Origin: a virus
Lineage: Duplodnaviria; Heunggongvirae; Uroviricota; Caudoviricetes
Reading direction: 5' to 3' (one strand)
Virus record (IMG/VR): IMGVR_UViG_2802429242_000002
Span: 1 to 5,028 of that record
Length of the DNA: 5,028 nucleotides
Positions 121-4,157 of the stretch are shown here, piece by piece. A program made the translations under genes and the position numbers. Within the stretch, counting starts at the first letter, position 1. Each line of letters begins with the position of its first letter. The notes under the pieces were generated by a model, which was not told the origin of the DNA, ran no database searches, and saw only the letters and a list, made by a program, of their open reading frames with translations.

Positions 121-1269
121 TCATTTGCGCCCCCTTACCTCTGAAGGGTTCAGCGACAAATTTATGAGGCAGGCCAGCGCCGAAGCATCATTAATATAGT
201 CATATAAGCTAACAGCCAGCGGAGATTCGGCTTTTGCCAACATAGGATAAAGCTGCTGCAGCCAGACCTGATGAATTGATGAAATGTAGGAACAGAGAAC
301 GCTGGCGTTATGTGCAACGTCGCTCGGTACAGCGGGCTTTGAAAGCTGTTTCTCCATCTGGTTAAAGGCATTGATGTATGCCTCTTTGAACTGGGCAGCA
401 CGTTTACCCGTGAAACCCATAGCAAGAAACGCAAAGCCGTCGCGGGTTATTTGATAGCAAGGTAGTTTGCGGCCTGTGCAATCGGTGTAATCACTCACCG
501 AAAAATTGCGGGCAGTGAATGATGCGGAACATTCAAGCGTGCGGATCTTTTTCAGTACATCGTCATGACGTTTGGAGAAGAAGTTGGCAACAGCCAGGGA
601 TGAAGTAACAGCCTGACCATCAACGATGGCAATTTCAGGTTGAGTGAGGGTTGGGATCGTAGCCATGATGACAGCCTCCGATAACAGTGAATTACCTTCA
701 CCACCGGAAACGCCAATTTCGCTGGTGGTGAACTGAACGGGGTTGGCGTAACCGGCGTTATCGGAAACCGGCGCACCTTTCGGTGCCCCCGTCCAGCCCA
801 CCATAATTTGGGTGTGCGCAGACGCAGACGATAAAAAAAACGCTGGCGCGTCATATATCGCCGATAACATTTCCAGGACGCCAATCCCGGCACCCGCTTT
901 ATAAGGTGCCTGAACAGTGTAACGTCCCGGAATGGCAGAATCAATGTGCTGGTGGTCCTTCACACTCAACAAAATCACGCCTGAATTTCCACAAAGGACT
1001 AAAGCACTCATGCGGGTAGTCTTTGCGAAGATAGATAACGCGCTGTGTTTCTGGCTCCCAACGAATAACATGAACATAAAGTCCTCTTCCGTCACGAAAC
1101 CAGCGGTTAAGTTCCTGCACAACTCGCCCCCCACAGTCAGGTAAAGTTCTCTGTGGTTACTTACAGGCAGGTGATTTGGTAATCTGCATTCATGCCGTAA
1201 CAACAGGTGTTCAGCCACGCGGACCACCAGCTGTTGCGACCAACGGTTATTTGCCGTTAAACTGTTCAT
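121..1269 (-). CDS. Rha-family phage regulatory protein (antirepressor-like), with a ~200-aa N-terminal region of unknown function
   Basis: 382-codon ORF. Residues ~205-305 (TLTQPEIAIVDGQAVTSSLAVANFFSKRHDDVLKKIRTLE ... YQITRDGFAFLAMGFTGKRAAQFKEAYINAFNQME) match the Rha-family signature as I recall it (KRHDnVLr ... TRDGF..LvMGFTG..A.qFK.aYI..FN.ME). Start ATG 1267-1269 overlaps the upstream gene's stop as ATGA (stop 1266-1268), with GGAG 10 nt upstream. The N-terminal half uses E. coli-like codons (CCG, GGT, ACC, GAA, AAC) and its other frames look like shadow ORFs. Alternative internal start ATG at 664-666 (M202) has a strong GGAGG SD 8 nt upstream and would give a 181-aa Rha-only protein. 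Confidence 0.6.
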   Translation of the reverse strand: MNSLTANNRWSQQLVVRVAEHLLLRHECRLPNHLPVSNHRELYLTVGGELCRNLTAGFVTEEDFMFMLFVGSQKHSALSIFAKTTRMSALVLCGNSGVILLSVKDHQHIDSAIPGRYTVQAPYKAGAGIGVLEMLSAIYDAPAFFLSSASAHTQIMVGWTGAPKGAPVSDNAGYANPVQFTTSEIGVSGGEGNSLLSEAVIMATIPTLTQPEIAIVDGQAVTSSLAVANFFSKRHDDVLKKIRTLECSASFTARNFSVSDYTDCTGRKLPCYQITRDGFAFLAMGFTGKRAAQFKEAYINAFNQMEKQLSKPAVPSDVAHNASVLCSYISSIHQVWLQQLYPMLAKAESPLAVSLYDYINDASALACLINLSLNPSEVRGRK

Positions 1270-1878: not shown

Positions 1879-2142
1879 TTACGCAGCTGAACCGCTAACT
1901 TTTGAATAGCACTCAGGTAATCCATCATTTGGATTGGGGTAAATATCAGGACGCAATTCATGAGGGGTCACGGACCAGTTTCCCAACTCACAAAGTTGTA
2001 AAACCCGTTCTGACGGGACTTGATTGTTAATTACCCAATTAGCGACGGATTGAGTGGACTTAAAACCAAAGCGACGGGCTACTTCAGATAAAGATTTTCC
2101 CGCAGCTTTTACTGCTTTCTCTGTGTAGTTTTGAGATGACAT
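1879..2142 (-). CDS. Cro/YdaS-like helix-turn-helix regulator
   Basis: 87 aa. Sequence SLSEVARRFGFKSTQSVANWVINNQVPSERVLQLCELGNWSVTPHELRPDIY fits the YdaS/Cro-like pattern (HTH followed by a conserved HELRPD motif). Divergent from the repressor gene. GAGGAG SD 6 nt upstream of ATG 2140-2142. Confidence 0.85.
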   Translation of the reverse strand: MSSQNYTEKAVKAAGKSLSEVARRFGFKSTQSVANWVINNQVPSERVLQLCELGNWSVTPHELRPDIYPNPNDGLPECYSKVSGSAA

Positions 2143-2150
2143 ACCTTTCT

Positions 2151-2167
2151 CCTCTGAAATTCAGAGG
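2151..2167. promoter_or_regulatory. Perfect 17-bp palindrome CCTCTGAAATTCAGAGG overlapping the Cro-like gene's SD and predicted transcript start
   Basis: Read directly: 8-bp perfect inverted arms around a single central base. Lies between the predicted PR-like -10 (2169-2174) and the Cro-like start codon. Its sequence differs from the CTAC-N5-GTAG operator family. Confidence 0.4.
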
Positions 2168-2168
2168 G

Positions 2169-2197
2169 ATAATGCTACTTAAAATAGCAAAATGCAA
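2169..2197 (-). promoter_or_regulatory. PR-like promoter for the Cro-like operon (-35 TTGCAT, 17-bp spacer containing operator, -10 CATTAT)
   Basis: Minus-strand sequence TTGCATTTTGCTATTTTAAGTAGCATTAT. It matches the plus-strand element at 4129-4157 (TTGATTTTTGCTACTTTTGGTAGCAGAAT) at 22 of 29 positions with identical layout, supporting paired early promoters. Hexamers are moderate matches to sigma70 consensus. Confidence 0.45.
2173..2189. promoter_or_regulatory. Operator O_R1-like 17-mer TGCTACTTAAAATAGCA
   Basis: Inverted arms TGCTA/TAGCA. Shares the CTAC ... (G/A)TAG half-site pattern with sites at 2196-2212, 2241-2257, 4114-4130 and 4137-4153. Sits in the spacer of the PR-like promoter. 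Confidence 0.5.
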
Positions 2198-2212
2198 CTA
2201 CTTAAAATAGAA
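2196..2212. promoter_or_regulatory. Operator O_R2-like 17-mer AACTACTTAAAATAGAA
   Basis: Exact direct repeat of the 13-nt core CTACTTAAAATAG from O_R1, centre-to-centre spacing 23 bp, comparable to lambda operator spacing. Overlaps the -35 of the PR-like promoter. Confidence 0.45.
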
Positions 2213-2240
2213 ATGACTAGCGTATGTGATGTGAGTAATC

Positions 2241-2257
2241 TTCTACCTATGGTAGAA
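2241..2257. promoter_or_regulatory. Operator O_R3-like 17-mer TTCTACCTATGGTAGAA overlapping the favoured repressor start codon
   Basis: 7-bp perfect inverted arms (TTCTACC/GGTAGAA) with CTAC and GTAG at the same positions as in the other operators. Contains ATG 2249-2251. Confidence 0.45.
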
Positions 2258-2953
2258 GAACAGAAGTATCCAGATTTCGCCAAGAGACTAAACGAGCTAA
2301 TGACAAACAAGGGAATTTCTGTCACCCAACTCAAAAGTCTTGTGGGCGTTACATATGAAATGGCGCGGCGATACACAATCGGCGCTGCGAAGCCTCGTGC
2401 CTCTGTCATGAATAAACTTGCATTGGCTCTGGGGGTATCAGCTTCATATTTAGAATATGGTGTTGGCGAGAGAGAAGGATGTAAGGAAATGACAAGCATC
2501 CCCAATCCAACAAAACCCGATGTATACAGGATAGAAGTTTTGGATCTTAGCGTTAGCGCAGGACCTGGGACCTATATGCTTTCAGACTATGTTGATGTGC
2601 TCTACGCCATTGAGTTCACAACAGAACATGCCCGTTCTCTTTTCGGCAACCGTTCTCAGGATGATATTAAGGTTATGACTGTAAATGGCGATAGTATGTC
2701 CCCTACTCTCGTTTCCGGAGACCGACTGTTTGTCGACATTTCTGTTCGTCACTTCCAGACTGATGGAGTTTACTCTTTCGTTTACGGTAAGACTTTTCAT
2801 GTCAAACGTCTTCAAATGCAAGGTGACAAGCTAGCCGTTCTTTCGGATAACCCCGCCTATGAGAAATGGTATATCGATGAAAAATCGCAGGATCAGCTTT
2901 ATGTAATGGGCAAGGCGTTGATTCACGAATCTATAAAATACAACCGATTGTAA
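2249..2953 (+). CDS. cI/LexA-type prophage repressor (N-terminal XRE-family HTH, C-terminal S24 self-cleaving peptidase domain)
   Basis: HTH region FAKRLNELMTNKGISVTQLKSLVGVTYEMARRYTIGAAKPRASVMNKLALALGVSASYLEYG. Candidate Ala-Gly cleavage site in LSVSAGPG. Serine nucleophile in the GDSMSPT motif and lysine in FHVKRL, as in LexA/lambda cI. Start is uncertain: the track ORF begins at ATG 2192 (253 aa), but 2192 and the ATG at 2213 lie inside the PR-like -35/operator region. ATG 2249 (234 aa) leaves ~9 residues before helix 1 and may be leaderless. None of the three has an SD. Confidence 0.85.
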   Translation: MVEEQKYPDFAKRLNELMTNKGISVTQLKSLVGVTYEMARRYTIGAAKPRASVMNKLALALGVSASYLEYGVGEREGCKEMTSIPNPTKPDVYRIEVLDLSVSAGPGTYMLSDYVDVLYAIEFTTEHARSLFGNRSQDDIKVMTVNGDSMSPTLVSGDRLFVDISVRHFQTDGVYSFVYGKTFHVKRLQMQGDKLAVLSDNPAYEKWYIDEKSQDQLYVMGKALIHESIKYNRL

Positions 2954-2997: not shown

Positions 2998-3360
2998 ATG
3001 AAATCTGAACTATTTCATAGCGAAGCAAATTCAGAAATTATCACCGCAGATGAGTTTATTGATTTCATAAACTCTTTCAAAAAGCCTTTAATTTGCCAAA
3101 TTTGCGGAAATCAATCATGGAGTGTAGTCGGTACTCTAGAACTTGAAGTTGAAGACAATCAGCCAAAACATCACGTAATCGAAGTTCTCAGCTATGCCCA
3201 ATACAAACCTGAAACTGATAGCGCTATAAATTATCCTGGTGGTATGCCGCTGTTTCGAATCACCTGTGATCACTGTGCACATGTACTTCTTTTTTCTTAT
3301 AAAAAAGCTAGATCATTGATCCAAAAAAGAAAAAATGAAAAAGAAGAGGATGGGAAATGA
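2998..3360 (+). CDS. Hypothetical small zinc-ribbon protein (two CxxC pairs), cargo gene downstream of repressor
   Basis: 120 aa with Cys33/Cys36 (CQIC) and Cys90/Cys93 (CDHC). AAAGGA SD 8 nt upstream of ATG 2998. Lysine-rich acidic tail. Markedly AT-rich (about one third G+C by hand count of 3001-3060, against about half in 601-660). I recognise no family. Confidence 0.7.
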   Translation: MKSELFHSEANSEIITADEFIDFINSFKKPLICQICGNQSWSVVGTLELEVEDNQPKHHVIEVLSYAQYKPETDSAINYPGGMPLFRITCDHCAHVLLFSYKKARSLIQKRKNEKEEDGK

Positions 3361-3989
3361 CGCGACCTTATCTCAGAGCAGTACCAAACTGTGGATCTGG
3401 TATTGATAAGTGTGACCTTTACCCCAATGTTAAGAACAGGCTGCGCGTCGGTATAGAAGAAATGTATACTGATTTTATCGAATCCGCAGATGAAACTTAC
3501 AAAACTGATGGGGGAAATAAAATGTCATCAGTTAGTCGAGAAGAAATTCAAGCACTTTTAGCTGCCAATAAAGCAGAAATGGAGTCCATTGCATCCTCTA
3601 TTAGAGTTGAAATGGCTTTATCTCGCGAGAACACAAACGTTCAGCTAGCATCTCTAAATTCAGCCATCAATTCTATCTCTTCGAAAATCGAAGGCAAAAT
3701 GGACAGTGTTGACGGGGATGTGAAGGCCATCAATGGTAGATTCGAAGGTATACAAGGCCAAATTACTGGAATAAATACAGCCATTAGTGGTATTCAATCT
3801 GGAATTTCTACCAGACTTGCTATTTTTGGAGTTATCATTGCGGTCATAGTTGCATTACCTAGCATAATTTCTGCTTTTAAAGATACTTCGCCAGTAGTTC
3901 AACCAGTTACACAACAACCAAGTGTTAAACATCTCAACCAAGAACCAATTACTCCACAAGTATTACCTCCGCAGGGAAAAGCAAACTAA
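3357..3989 (+). CDS. Hypothetical coiled-coil protein with single C-terminal transmembrane helix and proline-rich tail
   Basis: ATG 3357 overlaps the upstream stop as ATGA, with GAGGA 6 nt upstream. Alternative start ATG 3522 (M56) has GGGGGA 6 nt upstream. Residues ~60-150 are heptad-like and Ser/Ile/Gly-rich; hydrophobic segment LAIFGVIIAVIVALPSIISAF (~154-174); tail rich in P, Q and V. Architecture resembles small phage membrane proteins such as XhlA-like or exclusion proteins, by resemblance only. Confidence 0.65.
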   Translation: MTRPYLRAVPNCGSGIDKCDLYPNVKNRLRVGIEEMYTDFIESADETYKTDGGNKMSSVSREEIQALLAANKAEMESIASSIRVEMALSRENTNVQLASLNSAINSISSKIEGKMDSVDGDVKAINGRFEGIQGQITGINTAISGIQSGISTRLAIFGVIIAVIVALPSIISAFKDTSPVVQPVTQQPSVKHLNQEPITPQVLPPQGKAN

Positions 3990-4012
3990 ACCGGCTTTAT
4001 GCCGGTTTTTTT
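3989..4012 (+). terminator. Rho-independent terminator after the cargo cassette
   Basis: AACCGGC-TTTAT-GCCGGTT hairpin immediately after the TAA stop (3987-3989), followed by a run of seven T (4006-4012). Confidence 0.8.
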
Positions 4013-4113
4013 CTATACAAACGCCCCCTCTTTGTCTTGAATCACATCACAACACATTTAAAAAACATTTTAAATTCAAAGCATTAAACGCATCAACGCA
4101 TATCAAACAAATT

Positions 4114-4130
4114 ATCTACTTTTAGTTGTT
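4114..4130. promoter_or_regulatory. Operator O_L2-like 17-mer ATCTACTTTTAGTTGTT (weaker half-site)
   Basis: CTAC half-site at the conserved position, second half GTTG instead of GTAG. Centre lies 23 bp from O_L1, the same spacing as O_R1 to O_R2. Overlaps the -35 of the PL-like promoter. Confidence 0.35.
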
Positions 4131-4157
4131 GATTTTTGCTACTTTTGGTAGCAGAAT
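4129..4157 (+). promoter_or_regulatory. PL-like early promoter (-35 TTGATT, 17-bp spacer containing operator, -10 CAGAAT)
   Basis: Matches the PR-like element at 2169-2197 at 22 of 29 positions in the same promoter orientation. Located downstream of the repressor cassette terminator and upstream of plus-strand small ORFs, as for lambda PL/OL. Confidence 0.45.
4137..4153. promoter_or_regulatory. Operator O_L1-like 17-mer TGCTACTTTTGGTAGCA
   Basis: 6-bp perfect inverted arms TGCTAC/GTAGCA. Same family as the O_R sites. Lies in the spacer and -10 of the PL-like promoter. Confidence 0.5.

What the first reader, a model, noticed from the sequence alone, without database searches (positions are those of the whole stretch)
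2192..2257. Repressor start codon ambiguity: probable leaderless start at 2249 embedded in an operator palindrome
The ATGs at 2192 and 2213 lie within the -35 and operator of the divergent PR-like promoter, while ATG 2249 sits at the centre of the O_R3-like palindrome and has no SD. This fits a leaderless repressor transcript as for lambda cI from PRM, with autoregulation through an operator over the start site.
Basis: inference. Interest (0 to 1): 0.4.

Follow-up and report, generated by a model that had tools for sequence, protein, structure and literature searches.

The report
HK022-type repressor start inside its operator
The prophage repressor gene most likely starts at the ATG at 2249, which sits at the exact centre of a repressor-binding palindrome and has no ribosome-binding site; phage HK022 is already annotated with the same layout, so the finding is correct but ordinary.

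Summary
Three in-frame ATGs (2192, 2213, 2249) precede the conserved repressor coding sequence, and none has a Shine-Dalgarno. A2249 is the exact centre of a 21-bp palindrome (2239-2259) whose core CTAC-N5-GTAG matches four other operator-like sites (O_R1, O_R2, O_L1, O_L2).

Across 34 unique relatives:
- ATG2192 is not conserved; only the TTG of the divergent P_R -35 is.
- ATGAC[T/G] (2213-2218) is invariant.
- The next 17 nt vary at all three codon positions.
- TAAnCT (2236-2241) and the palindrome are invariant even at third positions.
- Codon periodicity begins only at 2258.

This is the footprint of a promoter (-35, 17 nt, -10, 7 nt, ATG), not of coding sequence.

Two sister immunity types place their own operator (GAAC-N5-GTTC, TTAAC-N5-GTTAA) on the same "ATG GTn" start. 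One has an in-frame stop two codons upstream. The GAAC type is phage HK022, whose GenBank records centre oR3 on the cI ATG. Published dRNA-seq gives 0-nt leaders for the e14 (ymfK) and Rac (racR) prophage repressors.

NCBI already annotates 2249; ENA and Logan gene calls (253 and 246 aa) look over-extended. No transcript start was mapped here, so "leaderless" remains an inference. A minor 246-aa isoform is not excluded.

The parts
1879..2142 (-). Cro-like gene (87 aa, YdaS-family HTH) with a strong SD, divergent from the repressor
   Evidence: ORF list. Pfam YdaS_toxin E 4.6e-11. Anti-SD dG -9.1. PGAP annotates the same CDS in an identical prophage. Not related to HK022 Cro.
2169..2174 (-). 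P_R -10-like hexamer CATTAT (TATTAT or CATCAT in relatives)
   Evidence: Sequence; alignment of relatives. The promoter assignment is an inference: it scores 7/12 to consensus, below the scan threshold.
2175..2187 (.). O_R1: CTACTTAAAATAG, in the P_R spacer
   Evidence: Direct repeat with O_R2 at 23-bp spacing. Motif enrichment. Reads CTACTTAAAGTAG in most relatives.
2192..2197 (-). P_R -35 TTGCAT; its complement supplies the non-conserved ATG2192
   Evidence: In relatives the triplet is TTG, ATA, GAT and others; only CAA (the TTG of the -35) is invariant.
2198..2210 (.). O_R2: CTACTTAAAATAG, abutting the -35 of the repressor promoter; centre at -45 from A2249
   Evidence: nearly invariant among relatives.
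2213..2218 (+). -35-like hexamer ATGACT of the repressor (P_RM-like) promoter; it contains ATG2213
   Evidence: ATGAC is invariant in 20 promoter variants. The position-equivalent hexamers in sister families are CTGATA (HK022 type) and CTGACA, which are not start codons.
2219..2235 (+). 17-nt promoter spacer, hypervariable
   Evidence: Mean column entropy 1.17/0.83/1.07 at codon positions 1/2/3, so no periodicity. No length variation was seen. Pairwise amino-acid identity of the 5 free codons is 0.22.
2236..2241 (+). -10-like hexamer TAATCT, 7 nt before A2249
   Evidence: Variants are TAACCT, TAAGCT and TAACAT: hexamer positions 1, 2, 3 and 6 never vary. The same geometry is seen in HK022 (TATAGT+7), family C (GATATT+6) and e14 ymfK (TTTAAT+6).
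2239..2259 (.). O_R3-like palindrome TCTTCTACC-TAT-GGTAGAAGA (core CTAC-N5-GTAG at 2243-2255), centred on A2249
   Evidence: The 17-bp TTCTACCTATGGTAGAA is exact in 57 fetched loci, always centred on the start. It is invariant even at third codon positions.
2249..2953 (+). Repressor CDS, 234 aa: HTH_3 N-domain plus S24 self-cleaving C-domain
   Evidence: PGAP start in an identical prophage (WP_001343338.1). Pfam. Codon periodicity begins at 2258. 42% identity over the full length to HK022 cI, with M1-V2 aligned. The Ala-Gly site, Ser of GDSM and Lys of VKRL are invariant.
2998..3989 (+). Two overlapping cargo ORFs downstream of the repressor (2998-3360 and 3357-3989), probably co-transcribed
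   Evidence: ORF list. SDs of -5.4 and -8.7. PGAP annotates both. No confident family match.
3988..4015 (+). Intrinsic terminator ending the repressor operon
   Evidence: 8-bp stem with 5 GC pairs, followed by a T-run.
4116..4157 (+). O_L2 (4116-4128), P_L -35 TTGATT (4129-4134), O_L1 (4139-4151), P_L -10 CAGAAT (4152-4157); pointing rightward
   Evidence: The unit TTGATT-tttgCTACTTTTGGTAG-CAGAAT mirrors P_R, TTGCAT-tttgCTATTTTAAGTAG-CATTAT. The promoter assignment is an inference.

Best explanation
The window carries an HK022-type lambdoid immunity switch with its own operator specificity (CTAC-N5-GTAG).

The repressor is a 234-aa HTH plus S24 self-cleaving protein. It is translated from ATG2249 on a transcript that begins at, or within 1-2 nt of, that ATG. 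The promoter is ATGACT (2213-2218), 17 nt, TAATCT (2236-2241), 7 nt, then A2249. Because there is no leader and no SD, the 5'-terminal AUG itself recruits the ribosome, as for lambda cI from P_RM.

Repressor dimers at O_R1 and O_R2 shut off the divergent cro promoter. O_R2 abuts the -35 of the repressor promoter, so it may also help RNA polymerase there. The third site, O_R3, is centred on +1 and the start codon, so at high concentration the repressor blocks its own promoter (negative autoregulation).

The upstream ATGs are by-products of promoter hexamers. ATG2192 is the complement of the P_R -35 TTGCAT, and ATG2213 is part of the P_RM-like -35.

Shown here: sequence anatomy, conservation footprint, homology to HK022 cI, and absence of an SD. 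Inferred: the transcript start, repressor binding to the five sites, and activation from O_R2.
For: 1. None of the candidate starts has an SD, while cro and the neighbouring genes do.

2. Conservation footprint in 34 unique relatives (66-100% protein identity):
- 2198-2217 is nearly invariant.
- 2219-2235 varies at all codon positions.
- 2236-2257 is invariant, including third codon positions.
- 3-periodicity appears only from 2258: entropy 0.66/0.41/1.12 at codon positions 1/2/3.

3. ATG2192 is replaced by TTG, ATA, GAT and others in relatives.

4. The -10-like hexamer keeps positions 1, 2, 3 and 6 in all 20 variants. The spacer is always 17 nt and the distance to the ATG is always 7 nt.

5. 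The motif CTAC-N5-GTAG occurs 5 times against 0.88 expected, and only at O_R and O_L positions.

6. Sister families with the same C-domain centre their own operator on the same ATG-GTn start. Family B has tGAACtcATGGTTCa with TATTAT+7 nt. Family C has TTAACtaATGGTTAA with CTGACA-17-GATATT+6 nt and an in-frame TAA at -6, which forbids any extension.

7. HK022 cI is 42% identical over residues 1-234. GenBank X16093.1 and HM173637.1 annotate oR3 centred on the A of the cI ATG.

8. Romero et al. 2014 (PMC4681348, Table S3) mapped 0-nt leaders for ymfK (e14) and racR by dRNA-seq. e14 ymfK has TTTAAT+6 nt+ATG. A leaderless PracR3 was mapped by primer extension (PMC9638921).

9. PGAP independently calls 2249.

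10. In the AF2 model of the 253-aa form, residues 1-20 have pLDDT 34-37 and no secondary structure. The HTH domain (pLDDT 78-91) follows directly.
Against: - No transcript 5' end or protein N-terminus was measured for this element or, as far as I could read, for HK022 P_RM.
- The proposed promoter matches the sigma-70 consensus only 7/12. The generic scan did not report it and instead found TTAAAA-18-TAAAAT (2179-2208) on the same strand.
- ATG2213 is invariant and its frame is open in all 20 variants: 0 stops against 10 and 19 in the other two frames. A shuffle test puts this at p ~0.05 at best, and higher given shared ancestry.
- O_R2 is centred at -45, 3 bp further upstream than lambda O_R2. 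Activation is therefore only conjecture.
Confidence: 0.7

Rival explanations
1. The repressor is a 246-aa protein translated from ATG2213, as Logan/ENA gene callers predict for relatives. The 12 extra residues form a variable N-terminal arm.
For: ATG2213 is invariant, and the frame to 2249 is open in all 20 promoter variants (about 8 lineages), with 0 stops against 10 and 19 in the other frames. Many database entries carry this form. The A-rich, unstructured upstream sequence could allow SD-independent initiation on a longer transcript (inference).
Against: - There is no SD (dG +1.7).
- The five free codons show no periodicity and only 0.22 pairwise amino-acid identity, against 0.50 just downstream.
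- The open frame is not significant (p ~0.05 or worse).
- The position-equivalent hexamer in sister families is CTGATA or CTGACA, not a start codon, and family C has a stop at -6.
- A -10 placed for a leaderless start at 2213 would leave only 4 nt between TAAAAT and the ATG (sequence).
- The extension is predicted to be disordered.
- PGAP and the HK022 annotation both use the palindrome ATG.
Confidence: 0.1
2. The repressor mRNA is leadered. It starts from an upstream promoter such as TTAAAA-18-TAAAAT (2179-2208, start near 2215) or an establishment-type promoter in or beyond cro, and translation begins at AUG2249 without an SD.
For: This is the only sigma-70 consensus hit in the region (9/12). 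Lambdoid phages generally also make a longer establishment transcript (established knowledge for lambda P_RE; pE is annotated in HK022 and HK75).
Against: - Both hexamers lie inside the operator cores, so their conservation is already explained. The first T of the -10 is G or A in some relatives.
- In any transcript that includes 2239-2248, the palindrome folds into a 9-bp hairpin (-11.6 kcal/mol, z -5.1) that buries AUG2249. A transcript starting at 2249 is unstructured.
- This model does not explain the invariant TAAnCT placed 7 nt before the ATG in three families.
Confidence: 0.12
3. The palindrome at 2239-2259 is not an operator. It is an RNA hairpin that controls translation or stability of a leadered repressor mRNA.
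For: As RNA it is a strong predicted hairpin: -11.6 kcal/mol, with 0 of 200 shuffles folding as well.
Against: - Its core has the same CTAC-N5-GTAG form as four sites at canonical O_R and O_L positions.
- In each sister family the palindrome on the ATG matches that family's own O_R1/O_R2 sequence. In HK022, O_R3 is identical to O_R1.
- The family C version is too AT-rich and short to form a stable hairpin.
- No covariation is available to test the hairpin, because the element is invariant.
Confidence: 0.05
4. The gene starts at ATG2192 (253 aa), as in the ENA-derived cluster P0001.
For: It is the longest ORF. One database cluster of 295 members uses this start.
Against: The ATG is absent in most relatives (TTG, ATA, GAT and others). 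There is no SD. It lies inside the divergent -35, and the ORF would read through O_R2.
Confidence: 0.01

Closest known systems
Phage HK022 (and HK75) immunity region: cI with oR3 centred on its start codon (GenBank X16093.1, HM173637.1)
   Same: - cI is a full-length homolog: 42% identity, E 5e-67, with the Met-Val N-termini aligned.
- The third O_R operator is centred exactly on the A of the ATG.
- The operator has the form nnAC-N5-GTnn.
- The -10-like hexamer is followed by 7 nt and then the ATG, and there is no SD.
- There is an in-frame upstream ATG that is really part of a P_R hexamer.
- O_L operators lie just after the repressor operon.
   Different: - Operator specificity differs: CTAC-N5-GTAG here, TGAAC-N5-GTTCA in HK022.
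- The O_R2-O_R3 centre distance is 45 bp here and 33 bp in HK022. Here O_R2 abuts the -35, whereas in HK022 the -35-like CTGATA lies inside O_R2.
- Here P_R has O_R1 in its spacer and O_R2 upstream of its -35. In HK022, O_R1 lies downstream of the -10 and O_R2 lies in the spacer.
- Cro is a YdaS-family protein unrelated to HK022 Cro.
- Two cargo genes follow the repressor, and there is no nun.
Lambda cI / P_RM / O_R3
   Same: - Divergent P_R and P_RM with three operators.
- A leaderless cI mRNA starting at the A of the ATG, with the -10 (TAGATT) 6 nt upstream (established knowledge; PMC10491246 abstract).
- An S24 self-cleaving repressor.
- Negative autoregulation through the third operator.
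   Different: - Lambda O_R3 lies between the -35 and -10 of P_RM, 23-24 bp from O_R2. Here the third site covers +1 and the start codon, 45 bp from O_R2.
- The N-domains are not detectably similar by sequence, and there were no PDB hits by sequence search.
Leaderless repressor mRNAs of the E. coli K-12 cryptic prophages e14 (ymfK), Rac (racR) and Qin (dicA)
   Same: - The same gene neighbourhood type: repressor, then a divergent YdaS/YmfT-type cro, then ymfL.
- 0-nt leaders mapped by dRNA-seq for ymfK and racR (PMC4681348 Table S3; dicA is listed there as leaderless, <10-nt leader) and by primer extension for racR (PMC9638921).
- e14 has TTTAAT + 6 nt + ATG and no SD.
   Different: - YmfK shares only the S24 domain (33% over 70 residues).
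- The e14 palindromic operator TGTACC-N5-GGTACA lies upstream of the -10, not on the ATG.

Membership tests
LexA / lambda cI-type self-cleaving repressor (HTH + Peptidase S24) | N-terminal helix-turn-helix DNA-binding domain | tested here: met
   Pfam HTH_3 E 2e-5, above its cut-off. The AF2 model has a five-helix domain with pLDDT 78-91.
LexA / lambda cI-type self-cleaving repressor (HTH + Peptidase S24) | C-terminal S24 domain with the Ser/Lys dyad and an Ala-Gly cleavage site | tested here: met
   Peptidase_S24 E 2.1e-16. A104-G105, S149 (in GDSM) and K186 (in VKRL) are invariant in alignments A2 and A3.
LexA / lambda cI-type self-cleaving repressor (HTH + Peptidase S24) | RecA-stimulated autocleavage | not testable with these tools
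   Needs biochemistry or an SOS-induction assay.
HK022-type immunity region | Repressor homologous to HK022 cI over its full length | tested here: met
   BLASTP 42% identity, residues 1-234 against 1-234, E 5e-67.
HK022-type immunity region | Third O_R operator centred on the cI start codon | tested here: met
   Window palindrome centre is A2249. HK022 oR is 487-501 with the CDS from 494. HK75 oR3 is 594-608 with the CDS from 601.
HK022-type immunity region | HK022 operator sequence and immunity specificity (TGAAC-N5-GTTCA) | tested here: not met
   Window operators are CTAC-N5-GTAG, so this is a different immunity type within the same architecture.
HK022-type immunity region | HK022 spacing (O_R2-O_R3 33 bp, -35 inside O_R2) and an HK022-type Cro | tested here: not met
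   Spacing is 45 bp here and the -35 abuts O_R2. Cro is YdaS-family and unrelated to HK022 Cro.
Leaderless mRNA (lambda cI P_RM type) | Transcript 5' end coincides with the A of the AUG | not testable with these tools
   No transcript data are available. The geometry (-10 + 7 nt, T at -1 and A at +1) fits.
Leaderless mRNA (lambda cI P_RM type) | No Shine-Dalgarno and an AUG (not GUG or UUG) start | tested here: met
   dG -2.2 against a background median of -1.9. The ATG is invariant in 57 loci.
Leaderless mRNA (lambda cI P_RM type) | Promoter -10 element 6-8 nt upstream of the start codon, conserved in relatives | tested here: met
   TAAnCT/TAACAT is always 7 nt upstream. The same holds in families B and C, HK022, e14 and most of the more distant families.
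Operator-mediated negative autoregulation (O_R3-like) | Site of the same sequence family as the lytic-promoter operators, overlapping the repressor's own promoter | tested here: met
   The core motif is shared with O_R1, O_R2, O_L1 and O_L2. It covers about -10 to +11 relative to A2249.
Operator-mediated negative autoregulation (O_R3-like) | Repressor binds the site and lowers its own transcription | not testable with these tools
   Needs a footprint or EMSA, and reporter fusions.

The most novel reading that the evidence does not exclude
A two-start design. In lysogens the leaderless P_RM-type transcript gives the 234-aa repressor. On longer transcripts (establishment or read-through), the 9-bp-arm palindrome folds into a hairpin that buries AUG2249. 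The invariant upstream AUG2213, which has an always-open frame and sits in unstructured A-rich RNA, is then used instead and gives a 246-aa isoform with a fast-evolving N-terminal arm. The operator would then double as an RNA switch that selects the start codon according to which promoter made the transcript.
Probability: 0.08. Interest if true: 0.45.

Novelty: new member of a known kind. Interest (0 to 1): 0.2.

Why it matters
Practical value:
- It fixes the repressor start at 2249 (234 aa).
- It shows that the 246- and 253-aa forms common in ENA- and Logan-derived protein sets are probably over-extended calls that read through promoter and operator DNA.

It also defines a previously uncharacterised immunity specificity (operator CTAC-N5-GTAG) of the HK022-type switch. 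This immunity type is present in 206 of 5426 complete E. coli genomes, but no isolated phage in the collection searched matches it at the DNA level.

One general point follows. In at least three specificities of this repressor clade the operator is centred on a leaderless-type start. The right half-site (GTnn) therefore fixes codon 2 as Val, so the DNA-binding target and the repressor's own N-terminus overlap.

None of this changes the understanding of lambdoid switches.

Tried and rejected
- The genome-contig scan gave mostly distant relatives. The viral contig scan and exact-protein look-ups were needed to reach relatives at 66-85% identity.
- The generic promoter scan did not report either P_R or the proposed repressor promoter (both 7/12). 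It found only TTAAAA-18-TAAAAT inside the operators. I keep that as a rival, not as the main promoter.
- "Frame kept open from ATG2213" looked striking (0 stops against 10 and 19). A shuffle test on 8 lineages gives p ~0.05 at best, and the closures of the other frames come partly from the fixed hexamers. I rejected it as positive evidence for the 246-aa form.
- GTG2231 was considered as a start. It is not conserved and has no SD.
- A PDB sequence search found nothing.
- The AF2 model is good only for the N-domain (mean pLDDT 59.7). I used it only for the disorder of residues 1-20 and ran no fold search.
- Carlson & Little 1993 (PMC206910) on HK022 operators is not held, and the HK022 + leaderless search gave nothing relevant. 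What is published on HK022 P_RM could therefore not be checked.
- An HK022-like placement of P_R (with O_R2 in its spacer) was tried on the window sequence by eye and gives no plausible hexamers.

Full report
**What the window is.**
The 5028-bp window is the immunity region of a lambdoid prophage of E. coli.
- On the minus strand lie a Rha/Ash region (121-1269), a YmfL/CII(CP76)-like ORF (1266-1961) and a YdaS-family Cro-like gene (1879-2142).
- On the plus strand lie an HTH + S24 repressor ending at 2953, two cargo ORFs (2998-3360 and 3357-3989), a terminator (3988-4008) and a second operator/promoter cluster near 4116-4157.
- The cro-operator-repressor module occurs at >=80% coverage in 206 of 5426 complete E. 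coli genomes.
- At the DNA level, no isolated phage in the collection carries it. The flanks are mosaic with Stx, mEp460 and SfV-like phages.

**Observation check.**
- ATG2192, ATG2213 and ATG2249 share one frame.
- A2249 is the central base of a 21-bp palindrome, TCTTCTACC-TAT-GGTAGAAGA (2239-2259).
- Its 13-bp core, CTACCTATGGTAG, belongs to a motif CTAC-N5-GTAG. At <=1 mismatch this motif occurs five times in the window: 2175-2187, 2198-2210, 2243-2255, 4116-4128 and 4139-4151. Chance expectation is 0.88, and 0 of 200 shuffles reach five.
- The pairs at 2175/2198 and 4116/4139 are each 23 bp apart.
- None of the candidate starts has an SD. Anti-SD dG ranges from +1.7 to -2.2 kcal/mol against a background median of -1.9. 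Cro scores -9.1 and the other genes -5.4 to -8.7.
- ATG2192 is the complement of TTGCAT. Together with CATTAT 17 nt away, this forms the divergent P_R-like promoter, with O_R1 in its spacer.
The only adjustment is that ATG2213 lies 2 nt outside the O_R2 core.

**Databases disagree on the start.**
- PGAP annotates 2249 (234 aa, WP_001343338.1) in an identical prophage.
- An ENA-derived cluster uses 2192 (253 aa).
- Logan and ENA calls in relatives use the equivalent of 2213 (246 aa).

**Comparative footprint.**
I collected the region around the start from 57 loci with the same N-terminal domain (66-100% protein identity). This gave 34 unique sequences.
- ATG2192 is replaced by TTG, ATA, GAT and others. 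Only CAA, which is the TTG of the P_R -35, is invariant.
- From O_R2 through ATGAC (2198-2217) the DNA is nearly invariant.
- The next 17 nt (2219-2235) are hypervariable at all three codon positions: mean entropy 1.17/0.83/1.07. No length change was seen.
- From 2236 to 2257 the DNA is invariant even at third codon positions (0.03/0.05/0.12). The only variable positions there are hexamer positions 4 and 5.
- From 2258 on the pattern becomes that of a coding sequence (0.66/0.41/1.12).
- In all 20 promoter variants the arrangement is ATGAC[T/G], 17 nt, TA A n [C/A] T, 7 nt, ATG.
- The 17-bp palindrome TTCTACCTATGGTAGAA is exact and centred on the start in 57 loci.

This is what a promoter with a weak -35, a free spacer, a -10 and a protein-binding site at +1 looks like. 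It is not what an N-terminal coding extension looks like.

**Sister immunity types and HK022.**
Repressors with the same C-domain but different N-domains show the same design with their own operators.
- Family B has GAAC-N5-GT(A/T)C three times. The third copy is tGAACtcATGGTTCa on the start, preceded by TATTAT + 7 nt.
- Family C has TTAAC-N5-GTTAA. The copy TTAACtaATGGTTAA sits on the start, preceded by CTGACA-17-GATATT + 6 nt. An in-frame TAA two codons upstream makes any extension impossible there.
- At the position equivalent to ATG2213, families B and C have CTGATA and CTGACA. These are -35-like hexamers, not start codons.

A protein search of isolated phages then showed that family B is phage HK022.
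- HK022 cI is 42% identical to the window protein over residues 1-234, with the Met-Val N-termini aligned.
- GenBank X16093.1 (HK022) and HM173637.1 (HK75) annotate the third oR site centred exactly on the A of the cI ATG: oR 487-501 against a CDS from 494, and oR3 594-608 against a CDS from 601.
- HK022 also has CTGATA-17-TATAGT-7-ATG.
- HK022 also has an in-frame upstream ATG. It is the complement of its annotated pR -10, CATAAT.

In most of the more distant families the start again lacks an SD and follows a -10-like hexamer by 6-7 nt, for example TTGACG-17-TAAATT-7-ATG.

**Experimental precedents.**
- Lambda cI from P_RM is the classic leaderless mRNA (PMC10491246 abstract; established knowledge).
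- Romero et al. 2014 found only five leaderless mRNAs in E. coli K-12. Three of them encode prophage regulators. Table S3 lists ymfK (e14) and racR with the TSS equal to the gene start and a 0-nt leader (PMC4681348).
- e14 has the same ymfK / ymfT / ymfL layout as the window. Its ymfK start reads TTTAAT + 6 nt + ATG.
- For racR, primer extension and -10 mutagenesis identified a leaderless promoter as the strongest of three (PMC9638921).

**The main rival, ATG2213.**
- In its favour: the ATG is invariant and the frame is open in every variant, with 0 stops against 10 and 19 in the other frames.
- However, only five codons per lineage are free to acquire a stop. Shuffling the spacers gives 0.62-0.82 per lineage, so p ~0.05 for eight fully independent lineages and more given their relatedness.
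- The encoded residues are 22% identical between lineages, against 50% for the next 17 codons.
- They are predicted to be disordered (pLDDT 34-37), while the HTH domain starts right after M20.
- A leaderless start at 2213 would leave only 4 nt after the nearest -10-like hexamer.
- One observation keeps a small door open. Any transcript that includes 2239-2248 would fold the palindrome into a -11.6 kcal/mol hairpin that buries AUG2249. A transcript starting at 2249 is unstructured. On longer transcripts AUG2213 might therefore be used.

**Most likely mechanism.**
- Repressor dimers at O_R1 and O_R2 block P_R: O_R1 lies in its spacer and O_R2 against its -35. Dimers at O_L1 and O_L2 block P_L. 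The P_L unit TTGATT-tttgCTACTTTTGGTAG-CAGAAT mirrors P_R.
- The repressor's own weak promoter (7/12 to consensus) starts at A2249 and yields a leaderless mRNA.
- O_R2 abuts its -35 (centre at -45) and may help RNA polymerase there.
- O_R3, the best palindrome of the set, covers about -10 to +11 and shuts the promoter off at high repressor levels.
- SOS induction would act through the S24 domain; the Ala-Gly site, Ser and Lys are invariant.
- Binding, activation and the transcript start are all inferences.

**Comparison and novelty.**
- The architecture is that of HK022, not strictly that of lambda, where O_R3 lies in the P_RM spacer.
- Differences from HK022: operator specificity; an extra 12 bp between O_R2 and O_R3 (45 against 33 bp), which moves O_R2 off the -35; the placement of operators relative to P_R; an unrelated YdaS-type Cro; and cargo genes after the repressor.
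- It is a new member, with a new immunity specificity, of a known kind.
- The start at 2249 is already what NCBI annotates.

**Caveats.**
- No transcript or protein data exist for this element.
- The primary HK022 papers could not be read.
- The promoter assignments rest on geometry and conservation.

Noticed in passing
window 721-909 (-): Rfam finds a C4 antisense RNA (RF01695, 721-808, 82.8 bits) and an isrK Hfq-binding sRNA (RF01394, 833-909, 61.7 bits). Both lie inside the mechanical 382-aa ORF 121-1269, which carries Ash and Rha Pfam hits. This looks like a P1/P7 immI-type or Gifsy isrK/anrP-type antirepressor module. The long ORF is probably not one gene.
   Followed up: no
window 2150-2166: A second palindrome, CCTCTGAA-A-TTCAGAGG, lies between the P_R -10 and the cro ATG. 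In relatives it is conserved as CCTCT-N5-7-AGAGG, with a G..C to A..T double change. One arm is the cro SD (AGAGGAG on the minus strand). It could be an SD-sequestering hairpin, if it is transcribed, or a binding site over P_R +1, for example for the YdaS-type Cro.
   Followed up: partly
window 4116-4157: This is an O_L/P_L unit built like P_R (TTGATT-17-CAGAAT with O_L1 in the spacer, and O_L2 23 bp upstream). The terminator scan flags 4134-4156 as a hairpin, but it is the O_L1 palindrome. No third O_L site was found at <=1 mismatch.
   Followed up: partly
window 2192-2953; proteins P0001-P0042: Public protein sets carry three N-termini for this one gene: 253 aa (an ENA cluster with 295 members), 246 aa (Logan and ENA calls in relatives) and 234 aa (NCBI PGAP). 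The two longer forms read through operator and promoter DNA.
   Followed up: yes
L074-L091, L114 (HK022) against window 2198-2257: In the HK022 type, the -35-like hexamer CTGATA of the presumed cI promoter lies in the centre of O_R2, and O_R2-O_R3 are 33 bp apart. In family C the equivalent is CTGACA at 32 bp. In the window's family O_R2 sits 12 bp further away and only abuts the -35. This may separate repression from possible activation of the repressor promoter.
   Followed up: partly
L061-L070 against window 2187-2198: Some relatives have 22 rather than 23 bp between O_R1 and O_R2, which makes the P_R spacer 16 instead of 17 nt.
   Followed up: no
window 3357-3989 (+): The second cargo ORF overlaps the stop of the first (ATGA at 3357-3360). 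It has a second in-frame ATG at 3522 with an equally strong SD (-8.4 against -8.7). The protein has a coiled, repeat-like middle with weak baculovirus PEP/P10 hits below cut-off, and a C-terminal hydrophobic segment. Its function is unknown.
   Followed up: no
whole window against L001: The immunity module is 99.9% identical in E. coli 181.1, but the genes to its left differ there (PerC, DUF4222, methyltransferase). The window's own left flank is 97-99% identical to Stx2 phages and mEp460. A mosaic junction therefore lies near ymfL/cro.
   Followed up: no
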